NCBI GenBank assembly: GCA_963663955.1
Contig: OY760694.1
Location: 1,412,882 to 1,476,881, forward strand
Direction of reading: 5' to 3'
Length of the DNA stretch: 64,000 nucleotides
Source of the DNA: Acidimicrobiia bacterium
GTDB lineage: Bacteria > Actinomycetota > Acidimicrobiia > Spongiisociales > Spongiisociaceae
The notes under the pieces were generated by a model. The model saw only the letters and a program-made list of their open reading frames with translations, was not told the DNA's origin and made no database searches. A program made the translations under genes and the position numbers. This document shows, one piece after another, positions 37,554 to 39,050 of this stretch; the stretch's first letter is position 1; each line of letters opens with the position of its first letter.

Positions 37554-38258
37554 CTAAGTGAGGCCATCGCCCGGCGAGGAAACCGCGTATCCGAGCTTCT
37601 TCAGCGCCCTGGCCGCCGTGCCTGGATACCTCGTGGCGGTCGCCGCGGCCTGGATGTGCTCCCATTGGCGAAGTGATCCCAGTACCTCTCGCTTCCATCC
37701 GGGCTTGAAATCGGTGTACAGCTTTTCGCGGTTGAGGAAGAGCAGGAAGTCCTCGAGCGTGGGGCGGAACCGCGGGCCACCCACGGGGAAGTGGAGTGCG
37801 TGAAGGTCCGGCGCAGCACGACCGCTCGACCCGTAAACCCACGCCATCTCCGGTGAGTTGGCGTGGAGATGAACATGCGCCGCCGGTCGATCGTCAGTCC
37901 GGGGATACCGGTCGTACTCGATCCTTATCAACGGACGGTGTTTCTTCCGGCCTCCGGTTACGTCCACCCACAGCCCGATTGTGGACGTCACGACCCGTAT
38001 ATACGTACCGTCTCCCGCCATCTCGACCATGTAACGAACCTTCGTCAGGAGCACCGGCGCTGAAGGATCCTCATCCGCCCGAACGAGCGGAAACCCATCA
38101 GACCACGCTCCCATTCTCGATGCTCTAATCCGCGCCCGCTTACGGTCGGAGGTCAACTCTGCCACAAACCTGACATCGGTGTGGATCGCGGATACGACTA
38201 TGTGGTTGAGAGTTGCTATGAATTCCTCGGTGACAGTCTTGAGTGTTTGTTCGTTCAC
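37554..38258 (-). CDS. Hypothetical protein, putative toxin (RxEYD...HxHxH...LHFP motif)
   Basis: 234 aa; RIEYDR...PAAHVHLHA...LHFPVGGPRFRPTLEDFL; GTG start overlaps the upstream TGA (GTGA coupling). Confidence 0.75.
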   Translation of the reverse strand: MNEQTLKTVTEEFIATLNHIVVSAIHTDVRFVAELTSDRKRARIRASRMGAWSDGFPLVRADEDPSAPVLLTKVRYMVEMAGDGTYIRVVTSTIGLWVDVTGGRKKHRPLIRIEYDRYPRTDDRPAAHVHLHANSPEMAWVYGSSGRAAPDLHALHFPVGGPRFRPTLEDFLLFLNREKLYTDFKPGWKREVLGSLRQWEHIQAAATATRYPGTAARALKKLGYAVSSPGDGLT

Positions 38259-39037
38259 TCGTCGAACAGGAGCGGTCGGTACATGAGCCAGAGCTCACGT
38301 AGGTTGGCGTCGGTGAGGGTGTCCGCCTCGCCCTCGGCGCGGAACTCCTCCACCGTCATCCGCTCCTCCTCAAGACAAGCTTCCATCTCCTGCCACAGCT
38401 CCTCACGAGTGACGTACCGTATAGTCGTCATACTCTCAACCTCCAGGGGTGAACTTCCGCGCTGGTTGGGGTGTTCCGGACTCCCGTGATCTAGCTCGGG
38501 ACTTCGACTGTTCTCGATCCCTTCCGTATGATGCGAACGGCTTGGCCGTTCTGTGGGTATTCCGTCGAACAGGATCGGTCTGTAGTGCAGCCAGAGCTCA
38601 CGTAGGTTGGCGTCGGTGAGGGTGTCCGCCTCGCCCTCGGCGCGGAACTCCTCCACCGTCATCCGCTCCTCCTCCAACTCATGATCGAGTCGCTGCAGGA
38701 ACTCCTCACGCGTGACATACCGTATAGTCGTCATACTCTCAACTTCCTGAGGTGCGCCCCCGGGTGGGCCGGTCCGTTTCTGATTCACATGACCTTGCTC
38801 GGGACTTCGATCGTTCTCGATCTCTTCCGCAGGATGCGAACGGCTTGGCCGCTTTGCGGGTATTCCGTCGAACAGGAGTGGTCTGTACATGAGCCAGAGC
38901 TCGCGGAGGTTGGCGTCGGTGAGGGTGTCCGCCTCGCCCTCGGCGCGGAACTCCTCCACCGTCATCCGCTCCTCCTCAAGACAAGCTTCCATCTCCTGCC
39001 ACAGTTCCTCGCGAGTGACGTATCTGATCGTGGTCAT
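38255..39037 (-). CDS. Triple-repeat protein, putative antitoxin (three 57-aa cores, 101-aa period)
   Basis: GAGGAGG RBS before the ATG at 39037; MTTIRYVTREE...MTVEEFRAEGEADTLTDANLRELWLxYRPxLFD occurs three times. Confidence 0.8.
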   Translation of the reverse strand: MTTIRYVTREELWQEMEACLEEERMTVEEFRAEGEADTLTDANLRELWLMYRPLLFDGIPAKRPSRSHPAEEIENDRSPEQGHVNQKRTGPPGGAPQEVESMTTIRYVTREEFLQRLDHELEEERMTVEEFRAEGEADTLTDANLRELWLHYRPILFDGIPTERPSRSHHTEGIENSRSPELDHGSPEHPNQRGSSPLEVESMTTIRYVTREELWQEMEACLEEERMTVEEFRAEGEADTLTDANLRELWLMYRPLLFDE

Positions 39038-39050
39038 CCTCAACCTCCTC
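38255..39050 (-). repeat. Tandem direct repeat, 303-bp period, about 2.6 copies
   Basis: Unit ATGs at 39037, 38734 and 38431; a ~70-nt block (AGGTTGGCGTCGGTGAGGGTG...CCGCTCCTCCTC on the + strand) is identical in all three. Confidence 0.95.

What the first reader, a model, noticed from the sequence alone, without database searches (positions are those of the whole stretch)
38255..39050. Each repeat keeps its own RBS and ATG: three nested in-frame isoforms, with a mosaic variable patch
Seen: the ATGs at 39037, 38734 and 38431 are exactly 303 bp apart and are preceded by GAGGAGGTTGAGG, AGGAAGTTGAGAGT and GGAGGTTGAGAGT. The ORF could therefore yield 260-, 159- and 58-aa products, which implies a whole small gene plus its leader was amplified and fused in frame. 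Units 1 and 3 are identical in protein. Unit 2 swaps LWQEMEAC for FLQRLDHE (also M>H, L>I), yet shares its 5' codons with unit 3. A ~70-nt core is invariant in all three while the flanks carry synonymous changes. Inference: recombination or gene conversion shuffles a specificity patch, giving either antitoxin dosage tuning or recognition of more than one toxin or phage trigger.
Basis: partly seen in the sequence, partly recalled or inferred. Interest (0 to 1): 0.75.

Follow-up and report, generated by a model that had tools for sequence, protein, structure and literature searches.

The report
Triplicated antitoxin-like domain gene
A small acidic protein that probably keeps its basic neighbour protein in check has been copied three times head to tail and fused into one reading frame, inside a phage-defence island of a sponge-symbiont bacterium; it is a real but rare variant of an undescribed, widespread two-gene module.

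Summary
The minus-strand ORF 38255-39037 (260 aa) holds three 303-bp units, each a 57-aa acidic domain (A); 44-aa linkers join them. Contigs from public runs carry both unit junctions exactly, so it is not an assembly artefact.

A is normally a stand-alone 58-aa gene whose stop overlaps the start of a 234-aa basic protein (B, 37554-38258). All 26 intact B genes in other genomes have A directly upstream. Neither protein matches a Pfam family or a solved fold. A complex model supports A-B binding (0.75 against 0.01 for controls), with A lying over invariant B residues. The pair behaves like a mobile toxin-antitoxin or abortive-infection module, here inserted in a DISARM island.

Ten other fused two- or three-domain A proteins exist, and nearly all mix domain types.

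- **Unit types:** Units 1 and 3 are the "W/M50" type, which fits this B. Unit 2 is the "L/H50" type, whose natural partners differ at the contact residues.
- **Mosaic:** Unit 3 is a recombinant of the other two.
- **Nested isoforms:** This is weakly supported. Unit 2's ribosome-binding site is degraded, an equally strong site precedes codon 25 of every unit, and 7 of 15 internal units elsewhere have lost the Met.

No expression data exist.

The parts
38255..39037 (-). Three-domain A protein (260 aa), ATG at 39037, stop TGA at 38255-38257
   Evidence: ORF list and translation. Homologues start MTTIRY, so 39037 is the start, not the upstream GTG at 39130.
39038..39050 (-). Leader with SD (GAGGAGGTTGAGG) of unit 1; the tandem array begins here
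   Evidence: TRF array ends at 39048. Anti-SD duplex -12.5 kcal/mol. Stand-alone homologues have the same leader.
38867..39037 (-). Unit 1 domain (57 aa, W patch, M50)
38735..38866 (-). Linker 1 (44 aa, ...GPPGGAPQEVES); ends in a degraded SD (AGGAAG)
38564..38734 (-). Unit 2 domain (57 aa, L patch, H50, I54)
38432..38563 (-). Linker 2 (44 aa, ...NQRGSSPLEVES); ends in an intact SD (GGAGG)
   Evidence: -10.0 kcal/mol
38258..38431 (-). Unit 3 domain (58 aa, W patch, M50); mosaic of units 1 and 2
38301..38371 (-). Invariant 71-nt core, copy in unit 3 (other copies 38604-38674 and 38907-38977); encodes L20..N43, including the invariant F30-R31 and E33-G-E-A-D37 loop
   Evidence: A separate unitig at about 3x depth in 4 runs.
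37554..38258 (-). B protein (234 aa, pI 9.7); its GTG start overlaps the TGA stop of A (GAGTGA)
37017..37409 (+). PDC-M50A membrane protein, convergent with B (context)
   Evidence: PADLOC 5.1e-45; phrog_19896 5.9e-33; also lies near the module in L046
32883..36956 (+). DrmMI methyltransferase of DISARM (context)
   Evidence: PADLOC E=0; MmeI-type Pfam domains
39216..42652 (+). DrmA, divergent from A, split by a frameshift at 41843-41846 (context)
42649..44469 (+). DrmB (context)
   Evidence: PADLOC 5.4e-81; MZB domain

Best explanation
The ORF is a genuine in-frame fusion of three copies of a 57-aa acidic three-helix domain (A), joined by two disordered 44-aa linkers. A is the inhibitor (antitoxin-like) subunit of the basic 234-aa protein B, which is encoded directly downstream and translationally coupled to it. 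Each A domain lays its N-terminal strand and third helix over the conserved face of B. Together A and B form a small mobile conflict module of the toxin-antitoxin or abortive-infection kind, here lodged between drmMI and drmA of a DISARM island.

The full-length 260-aa protein is the main functional product. It offers three B-binding domains per translation of B, which gives a higher inhibitor-to-B ratio or avidity. The SD + ATG at each unit boundary is the inherited leader of formerly separate tandem A genes and is not required. It may still leak some 58-aa product from unit 3.

The array was built and is reshuffled by recombination between units, and between two old A lineages. W/M50 fits this B. 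L/H50 is the type found at the same DrmA-linked site in a relative. The identical 71-nt core serves as the crossover substrate.

Shown: the anatomy, family distribution, fused relatives, mosaic and read support. Inferred: binding (model only), toxicity of B, which product is made, and the role in defence.
For: - **Array and junctions:** The array and both junctions are confirmed.
- **A-B pairing:** 26 of 26 intact B genes in 27 loci of other species genomes have A directly upstream: 24 single, 1 as two separate ORFs, 1 fused two-domain. 8 of 8 metagenome loci also show single A + B. The overlapping GTGA stop/start is conserved.
- **Charge:** A domains have pI 4.3-4.6 and B has pI 9.7.
- **Complex model:** Score 0.75 against a best control of 0.01. 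That mark was reached by 116 of 157 solved complexes and 2 of 215 mismatched pairs. The runs agree in at least 94% of contacts, and partner pLDDT is at least 86.
- **Interface residues:** The interface includes invariant B residues S92, P109, R112, E114 and H130, and invariant A residues G34, E35, A36, D37, R45 and L49.
- **Co-variation:** B43 and B77 co-vary with A50 across 5 close lineages.
- **Fused relatives:** 10 other fused A proteins exist, 4 with three domains and 6 with two, all with open frames through diverged linkers.
- **Internal Met:** It is lost in 7 of 15 internal units elsewhere.
- **Mobility and conflict context:** A is found in 10 of 28 family genomes and in 0 of 372 genomes of other families of the order. 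Arrays of A-B modules occur, and there are broken B copies in 5 loci. 12 of 27 loci have PADLOC-family neighbours. B homologues with a small upstream gene lie between the integrase and lysis genes of Mycobacterium prophages and on Rhodococcus plasmids.
Against: - No experiment or RNA data exist; no listed run is RNA.
- Neither protein has a Pfam, NCBIfam, PADLOC or PDB relative, so toxicity of B is only inferred.
- A has no recognisable DNA-binding domain, unlike most type II antitoxins.
- The His residues that are invariant in close B homologues are not kept in the distant prophage and plasmid homologues, so no catalytic site can be named.
- Several modules lie among housekeeping genes such as fpg, engB-like and gatAB.
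- SD + ATG is retained at all 3 internal units for which DNA is available (own units 2 and 3, and L054 unit 2). It is intact in 2 of them, which is compatible with selected internal starts.
- The complex score used my own alignments, so its calibration holds only roughly.
Confidence: 0.55

Rival explanations
1. Polyvalent antitoxin. The fused domains have different specificities. Units 1 and 3 hold the resident B, while unit 2 (L/H50 type) neutralises another B lineage arriving on a mobile element or once resident at this site. This would work like polyimmunity proteins.
For: - 10 of 11 fused proteins combine two patch types.
- Stand-alone genes show two linked haplotypes: W patch with M50 in 14 of 21, and L patch with H50 in 13 of 16.
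- B43/B77 are R/M with M50 partners (own, L031), but S/L or W/W with H50 partners (L032, L034/35).
- The syntenic DrmA-linked module of a same-genus genome (L032) is L/H50.
- Genomes with three differently typed modules exist, as in L031-L033 of one MAG.
Against: - The own genome has a single full-length B.
- Only 5 close lineages support the co-variation, and they are related.
- A heterotypic make-up is about what random drawing of types would give: roughly 8.4 of 11 expected, by my arithmetic.
- No cross-binding test was possible.
Confidence: 0.2
2. Nested isoforms. Internal initiation at 38734 and 38431 yields 159- and 58-aa products that tune antitoxin dosage. This resembles the internally translated RpnS antitoxins.
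For: - Unit 3's start has an intact GGAGG 8 nt upstream (-10.0 kcal/mol), the same leader as stand-alone genes.
- The last five linker residues and the Met (Q/L-EVES-M) are kept in the own protein, P0177 and P0180, although the linker middles diverge.
- L054's internal unit also keeps SD + ATG.
- There is a precedent in Rpn genes-within-genes (PMC10327210, abstract seen in the listing).
Against: - Unit 2's SD (AGGAAG) does not reach -6 kcal/mol.
- In-frame ATGs at codon 25 of each unit score -12.1 to -12.2, better than unit 3's start. The motif is therefore common in this GAG-rich gene.
- 7 of 15 internal units in other fused proteins have no Met at the unit start.
- Identity of units 2 and 3 from -12 to +16 can be a conversion tract rather than selection.
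- There are no RNA or ribosome data.
Confidence: 0.2
3. Not a toxin-antitoxin pair. A is a structural, chaperone or regulatory subunit of a non-toxic B, and the repeats merely scaffold several B molecules.
For: - No toxin fold or catalytic motif was found in B.
- B's best structural neighbours are scaffold-like: Med17 C-terminal domain at Z 7.0 (rmsd 3.6, 110 aligned) and actin-capping protein at Z 5-5.6.
- An A-like domain fused to a B C-terminal segment lies beside rpoA/rplQ in the same genome.
- Some modules sit among housekeeping genes.
Against: The patchy, multi-copy, island-linked distribution, the decayed B copies, the prophage att-proximal and plasmid homologues, and the acid/base pairing are all typical of conflict modules.
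Confidence: 0.22
4. Assembly artefact: the triplication comes from mis-assembly of a repeat.
For: No single public contig spans the whole array.
Against: - Both distinct unit junctions, each with its own linker, occur with 0 differences in X1, X2 and X7.
- The shared core lies at about 3x depth: 44.7 against 12.4, 16.1 against 6.3, 20.4 against 7.6, and 285.8 against 94.9.
- The unit 1/3 patch lies at about 2x depth.
- A 78%-identical three-domain protein exists in another 4.08-Mb assembly.
Confidence: 0.03

Closest known systems
Type II toxin-antitoxin modules
   Same: A small acidic upstream protein and a larger basic downstream protein sit in one tightly coupled operon. Direct binding is predicted. 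The module is multi-copy with a patchy distribution, lies in defence islands and on a prophage and plasmids, and the larger gene is often decayed.
   Different: Neither protein belongs to a described toxin or antitoxin family. No DNA-binding domain is recognisable in A. The antitoxin-like domain is repeated two or three times in one polypeptide, a layout that my literature searches did not find described.
Polyimmunity proteins of polymorphic toxin systems (Zhang et al. 2012, PMC3482391; passages read)
   Same: Several immunity-type domains, often of different kinds, are joined in one polypeptide and read as polyvalent neutralisers. Tandem arrays of the stand-alone genes also occur.
   Different: According to the paper, those operons usually lack a toxin gene, and the toxins are large secreted proteins. 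Here the fused protein is translationally coupled to a uniform 234-aa partner that shows no trafficking domain, and the domains are close paralogues of one family.
Type III ToxIN/TenpIN antitoxins (tandem RNA repeats; PMC8860590 and PMC13682666, abstracts seen in listings)
   Same: The antitoxin is encoded as head-to-tail repeats upstream of the toxin, with one repeat per toxin molecule.
   Different: There the repeats are 36-nt-scale RNAs that the toxin itself cuts. Here each unit is a protein domain under purifying selection, and Rfam finds nothing.
Rpn genes-within-genes (RpnL/RpnS; PMC10327210, abstract seen in listing)
   Same: An in-frame internal start could release a small C-terminal protein that blocks a toxic partner.
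   Different: In Rpn the small protein is part of the toxin gene itself, and its translation was shown by experiment. Here internal starts are unproven and are not conserved among fused relatives.

Membership tests
Type II toxin-antitoxin system | Adjacent co-directional genes, with the small antitoxin gene coupled to the toxin gene | tested here: met
   A's stop overlaps B's start (GAGTGA). 26 of 26 intact B genes elsewhere have A directly upstream.
Type II toxin-antitoxin system | The antitoxin protein binds the toxin protein directly | tested here: inconclusive
   Model only: score 0.75 against a best control of 0.01. That mark was reached by 116 of 157 solved complexes and 2 of 215 mismatched pairs. 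Co-variation of A50 with B43/B77 in 5 lineages adds a hint.
Type II toxin-antitoxin system | The toxin arrests growth and the antitoxin rescues it | not testable with these tools
   No family, fold or motif names an activity for B.
Type II toxin-antitoxin system | The antitoxin carries a DNA-binding domain for autoregulation | tested here: inconclusive
   No Pfam or NCBIfam hit in A. No fold match. The domain is strongly acidic.
Polyimmunity proteins (polymorphic toxin systems) | Multiple immunity domains in one polypeptide | tested here: met
   Three A domains here. 10 other fused proteins exist, and 10 of 11 in all mix patch types.
Polyimmunity proteins (polymorphic toxin systems) | The cognate toxins are C-terminal domains of large secreted or trafficked proteins | tested here: not met
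   B homologues listed are 157-262 aa, with full-length ones about 230-250 aa. No trafficking domain was found in 49 + 60 members scanned.
Type III (RNA repeat) antitoxin | The repeats act as non-coding RNA | tested here: not met
   Units 1 and 3 differ only at synonymous sites. The frame is open through all units. No Rfam match at E<=1.
Genes-within-genes antitoxin (Rpn-like) | A functional internal translation start that is kept among relatives | tested here: inconclusive
   SD + ATG is present at unit 3 and weak at unit 2. The Met is kept in 8 and lost in 7 of 15 internal units elsewhere. No expression data.
DISARM (as an accessory gene) | Regular co-occurrence with drmA/drmB/drmC and a DISARM model hit | tested here: not met
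   No PADLOC DISARM model hits A or B. Only the own locus and L032 lie beside a full-length DrmA. At L047, L050 and L057 the SNF2-type helicase neighbour's best PADLOC hit is DrmD, with weaker DrmA-model hits. The remaining loci lie elsewhere.

The most novel reading that the evidence does not exclude
A protein-level counterpart of the ToxI repeat antitoxin. It would be a heterotypic 'poly-antitoxin' polyprotein whose units are tuned to different B lineages. The units would be reassorted by recombination at an identical 71-nt core and released as single domains, either by internal initiation or by cleavage of the disordered linkers. One gene would then both dose and broaden neutralisation of a new toxin family inside a defence island.
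Probability: 0.15. Interest if true: 0.75.

Novelty: new variant of a known kind. Interest (0 to 1): 0.5.

Why it matters
- **An undescribed family pair:** The A-B pair has no Pfam, NCBIfam, PADLOC or PDB relative. B nonetheless has 846 representative clusters and turns up in defence islands, a Mycobacterium prophage and Rhodococcus plasmids. It is a good candidate for a new toxin-antitoxin or abortive-infection family.
- **A natural experiment in specificity:** The fused multi-domain form joins two linked haplotypes (helix-1 patch plus residue 50), and the residue-50 position tracks partner residues 43 and 77. This shows how antitoxin specificity and dosage can evolve by tandem duplication, fusion and gene conversion, and it gives concrete residues to test.
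- **A caution for annotation:** SD + ATG motifs inside GAG-rich genes are poor evidence of isoforms.

Tried and rejected
- **Family and sequence searches:** Pfam, NCBIfam, PHROGs and PADLOC found nothing for A or B. PDB sequence search gave nothing significant; the best hits were E 0.037 for A and 1.1 for B.
- **Fold searches for B:** Foldseek against PDB had no hit at E<=0.001. The VIA wide search and second look gave a best Z of 6.3-7.0 (Med17C, capping protein, cystatin/NTF2-like), which is within the noise range the tool states. Weak hits to herpesvirus UL52 primase in two Foldseek libraries were not among the 50 best rows of the VIA second look, so I dropped the primase idea.
- **Fold search for A:** No hit.
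- **ESM Atlas:** The nearest B cluster carries an automatic 'AbiEi antitoxin' name without any Pfam family. I treated it as a lead only.
- **Cupin-like motif:** A resemblance of H-x-H-x4-E in B to the cupin motif (recalled from memory) was dropped. The His residues are not kept in distant homologues, and the fold is not a barrel.
- **Linker origin:** No homologue was found in any fetched locus or elsewhere in the window.
- **Promoter, terminator and Rfam scans:** Nothing above shuffles and no family match.
- **Viral contigs:** 0 of 6 pattern matches encode B.
- **Metagenome scan:** It returned only single-domain loci, so I obtained no DNA of the other fused proteins.
- **RNA and coverage:** No RNA holder was listed among 18 runs. 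In X6 the stretch 38673-38940 had no cover.
- **My own error:** The interface table was offset by one residue on B. It is replaced.
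Full report
**1.

Tandem Repeats Finder reports a single array at 38260-39048 with period 303, 2.6 copies, 82% matches and score 1091. It lies in the minus-strand ORF 38255-39037 (260 aa). A GTG at 39130 would extend the ORF to 291 aa, but all homologues begin MTTIRY.

Each unit is a 57-aa domain, and two 44-aa linkers join the three units. 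The domains of units 1 and 3 are identical in protein but differ at 11 synonymous sites. Unit 2 differs at residues 12, 13, 15-19, 50 (M>H) and 54 (L>I). A 71-nt core is identical in all three units.

**2. It is not an assembly artefact**

I laid the contigs of four public runs from three studies on 37400-39400.

- In X1, X2 and X7 a 250-nt contig (38369-38618) spans unit 2 / linker 2 / unit 3. A 292-nt contig (38645-38936) spans unit 1 / linker 1 / unit 2. Both have 0 differences.
- The 71-nt core is a unitig of its own at about three times the flank depth: 44.7 against 12.4, 16.1 against 6.3, and 20.4 against 7.6.
- In X6 a 113-nt unitig lies at 285.8 against 94.9.
- The patch shared by units 1 and 3 (38948-39004) lies at about twice the flank depth.

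The tool warns that contig depths are not copy numbers. No contig spans the whole array, and one run may be the source sample. A 78%-identical three-domain protein (P0177) from another 4.08-Mb assembly adds independent support.

**3. What the unit is**

The domain (A) normally stands alone as a 58-aa gene. I found 55 proteins of 34-85 aa with E<=0.001, mostly 58 aa, from Acidimicrobiia MAGs. The gene downstream in the window (B, 37554-38258, 234 aa) starts with a GTG that overlaps A's TGA stop. B has 140 close homologues and 846 representative clusters at E<=0.001.

In 27 loci of other species genomes, all sponge-symbiont Acidimicrobiia by their record titles, I counted 26 intact B genes.

- All 26 have A directly upstream: 24 single, one as two separate overlapping ORFs (L046), and one as a fused two-domain ORF (L054).
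- Nine broken B pieces in five loci were left out of the count.
- Eight of eight metagenome loci also show single A plus B, though several are duplicates.

Neither protein hits Pfam, NCBIfam, PHROGs or PADLOC or a solved structure by sequence.

- The AF2 model of B (pLDDT 84.5, pTM 0.83) is an N-terminal helix, a seven-stranded antiparallel sheet and C-terminal helices. Its best structural neighbours are at Z 6.3-7.0, within the noise range the tool states.
- A is predicted to be three helices after an extended N-terminus (pLDDT 78.8) and has no fold match.

**4. A probably binds and covers B**

A domains have pI 4.3-4.6 and B has pI 9.7. The complex model of one A domain with B scores 0.75 against 0.01 for the best of three controls. 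That mark was reached by 116 of 157 solved complexes and 2 of 215 mismatched pairs. The runs agree in at least 94% of contacts, and partner pLDDT is at least 86. My own alignments were used, so these counts hold only roughly.

- A's residues 2-9 pair with B's strand 30-38.
- A's loop 34-37 (invariant G-E-A-D) and helix 3 (42-57) lie on B's sheet over the invariant residues S92, P109, R112, E114 and H130.
- This is a model, not a measurement.

**5. Setting**

In the window the module sits between DrmMI (32883-36956) and DrmA/DrmB (39216-44469) of a class 1-type DISARM island. It is convergent with a PDC-M50A gene. A same-genus genome (L032) also has the module divergent from an intact DrmA.

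Elsewhere the neighbours vary. I scanned 81 of 98 neighbour ORFs. The 17 left out were B copies and ORFs that Pfam had already named as housekeeping.

- 12 of 27 loci have a PADLOC-family neighbour at E<=1e-8. These include DrmA/DrmD-like helicases, an Argonaute-associated REase protein, Schlafen-like ATPases, AbiLi and PDC candidates.
- Pfam also shows PIN, MazF, Fic, HNH and IS110 neighbours.
- It also shows fpg, an EngB-like GTPase, gatAB and aroA.

The A profile is found in 10 of 28 genomes of the family (own included) and in 0 of 372 sampled genomes of other families of the order. Modules also occur in arrays, with three in L041.

Distant B homologues (29-30% identity) lie on Rhodococcus plasmids and in two Mycobacterium abscessus prophages. 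In the prophages, gene 77 follows a small gene 78 between the integrase and the lysis cassette. The small upstream genes match the A profile weakly, at 19.0 and 9.2 bits in a four-sequence search. Dedrick et al. 2021 (PMC8092301; abstract passages and section 12 read) describe att-proximal slots of such prophages as sites of lysogenically expressed conflict genes. They do not name this pair.

All this fits a mobile toxin-antitoxin or abortive-infection module, but it rests on association.

**6. Fused forms recur and are heterotypic**

A search at 143-455 aa found ten other multi-domain A proteins. Four have three domains (P0177, P0178, P0179, P0181) and six have two (P0180, P0182-P0186). Their linkers are 30-44 aa, rich in R, S, G, P, D and E, and fast-evolving. 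The two linkers in the window share 77% of nucleotides but only 54.5% of residues, and only the used frame is open in both. The frames nonetheless stay open, so the fusion is older than this genome and is maintained.

Stand-alone A genes fall into three helix-1 patch types, each linked to residue 50:

| Patch type | Count | Linked residue 50 |
|---|---|---|
| W (ELWQEMEA..) | 21 | M50 in 14 |
| L (E[FL]LxRLE..) | 16 | H50 in 13 |
| E | 14 | W, K or E (6, 4 and 3 of 14; one not read) |
| Unclassifiable | 4 | - |

Units 1 and 3 here are W/M50 and unit 2 is L/H50. Unit 2 is therefore a member of a second old lineage, not a mutated copy of unit 1. Ten of the 11 fused proteins combine two patch types.

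**7. Mosaic and shuffling**

There are 34 sites where units 1 and 2 differ. Unit 3 matches unit 1 at 24 of them and unit 2 at 10, in 8 runs. A permutation test gives p about 0.003, but neighbouring patch sites are not independent. At the 15 synonymous sites among these, unit 3 matches unit 2 at 10. Unit 3 thus has a unit-2-like backbone carrying unit-1-like versions of the patch and of residues 50 and 54.

P0177 has the order W-L-L, and its two linker types are in the opposite order to the window's.

In the core (codons 21-43), 0 of 69 same-residue codon pairs differ among the three units. The flanks show 18 of 46 and 10 of 38. Among nine homologues from other genomes the core does vary: 0.21 against 0.38 and 0.35. 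Within-array identity therefore reflects homogenisation or recent crossover as well as constraint.

In X6 a 113-nt unitig (38286-38398) at about 3x depth hints at a strain in which all units share the W patch. I did not follow this up.

**8. Specificity**

Only residue 12 of the helix-1 patch is in the predicted interface. Residues 50 and 54 are in it, touching B43, B75, B77, B90 and B91. My first table was offset by one residue on B. The corrected values are below.

| Lineage | A residue 50 | B residues 43/75/77/90 |
|---|---|---|
| Own B | M (units 1, 3) | R/R/M/V |
| L031 / L069 | M | R/K/M/V |
| L032 / L070 / L073 | H | S/K/L/I |
| L034 / L035 | H | W/R/W/L |
| L033 / L075 | E | R/T/I/V |

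The resident B looks like a partner of units 1 and 3, and unit 2 is of a type that normally faces a different B surface. This rests on five related lineages only. The genome has no second full-length B, by protein search or by profile search.

**9. Nested isoforms**

By anti-SD duplex energy:

| Start | Position | Energy (kcal/mol) |
|---|---|---|
| Annotated start | 39037 | -12.5 |
| Unit 3 start | 38431 | -10.0 |
| Unit 2 start | 38734 | does not reach -6 |
| In-frame ATG at codon 25 of each unit | 38965, 38662, 38359 | -12.1 to -12.2 |

Public gene calls even start there (P0050, P0053, P0054). Of 15 internal units in other fused proteins, 8 keep the Met at the unit start and 7 do not. For the 14 units known only as protein, other start codons cannot be excluded. 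A 58-aa product from unit 3 is mechanistically plausible, but nothing shows it is made or selected. The 159-aa product has the weakest support.

**10. Verdict**

Best reading (confidence 0.55): a maintained, in-frame 'poly-antitoxin' of an undescribed A-B conflict module. It was built and is reshuffled by recombination between units of two old lineages. The full-length protein is the main product, and the internal leaders are relics.

The polyvalent reading (0.2), the isoform reading (0.2) and a non-toxic scaffold reading (0.22) remain open; the first two are not exclusive of the best reading. Artefact is unlikely (0.03).

My searches for tandem, duplicated or repeated protein antitoxins returned only RNA-repeat type III systems, polyimmunity proteins and Rpn genes-within-genes. 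A search for the host family name returned one nomenclature paper. I therefore found no description of this module. Supplements were not consulted.

Noticed in passing
window 41843-41846 (DrmA 39216-41846 and 41843-42652): DrmA is split into 876 + 269 aa by a one-base frameshift at ...GTGGAGTGACATCG. The same-genus homologue (L032) reads straight through as ...FSEVVE-LTSRV... in one 1168-aa ORF. This is either a real pseudogene, which would mean an inactivated DISARM, or an assembly error.
   Followed up: partly
own genome G000:C1:3320456-3320728 (L068 1366-1647, minus strand): A 93-aa ORF lies directly downstream of rpoA and rplQ. It joins a distant A-like domain (E 3.4e-6) to a segment matching profile positions 194-232 of B (E 4.1e-7). 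It ends ...MGYRVTPP, like the C-termini of the Mycobacterium and Rhodococcus B homologues (MGYTVTPPE, MGYEITPPE). The C-terminal part of B may be a separate module.
   Followed up: partly
window 37017-37409 (+): A PDC-M50A candidate-defence membrane protein (PADLOC 5.1e-45; phrog_19896) is convergent with B. A PDC-M50A homologue also lies about 1 kb beyond B in L046.
   Followed up: partly
window 38965, 38662, 38359 (minus strand): Every unit holds GAGGAGGAGCGG-ATG at codon 25, an SD-like site as strong as the true start. Public gene callers have produced 34-42-aa ORFs from it in relatives (P0050, P0053, P0054).
   Followed up: yes
run X6 laid on window 38286-38398: One 113-nt unitig at about 3x flank depth covers the core plus the W patch. 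In the other runs this stretch is split. This hints at strain variation in which all units share the W patch.
   Followed up: no
L046 3616-4001 and L034 1725-2110: Two A genes lie in tandem as separate ORFs: a 66-aa form with a ...DEESHWEDR tail, then a diverged A' whose GTG overlaps the TAG stop. This looks like an unfused counterpart of the multi-domain proteins.
   Followed up: partly
L041 2672-6810; L042; L034: Two or three complete A-B modules lie in a row within 4-6 kb in some genomes.
   Followed up: partly
L077 (MW584173.1 58117-59061): Mycobacterium abscessus prophages prophi102-2 and prophiGD54-1 carry a B homologue (gene 77, 29% identity). A 78-aa gene lies 10 nt upstream, between the integrase and the holin/lysin genes. 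Both are annotated as hypothetical.
   Followed up: partly
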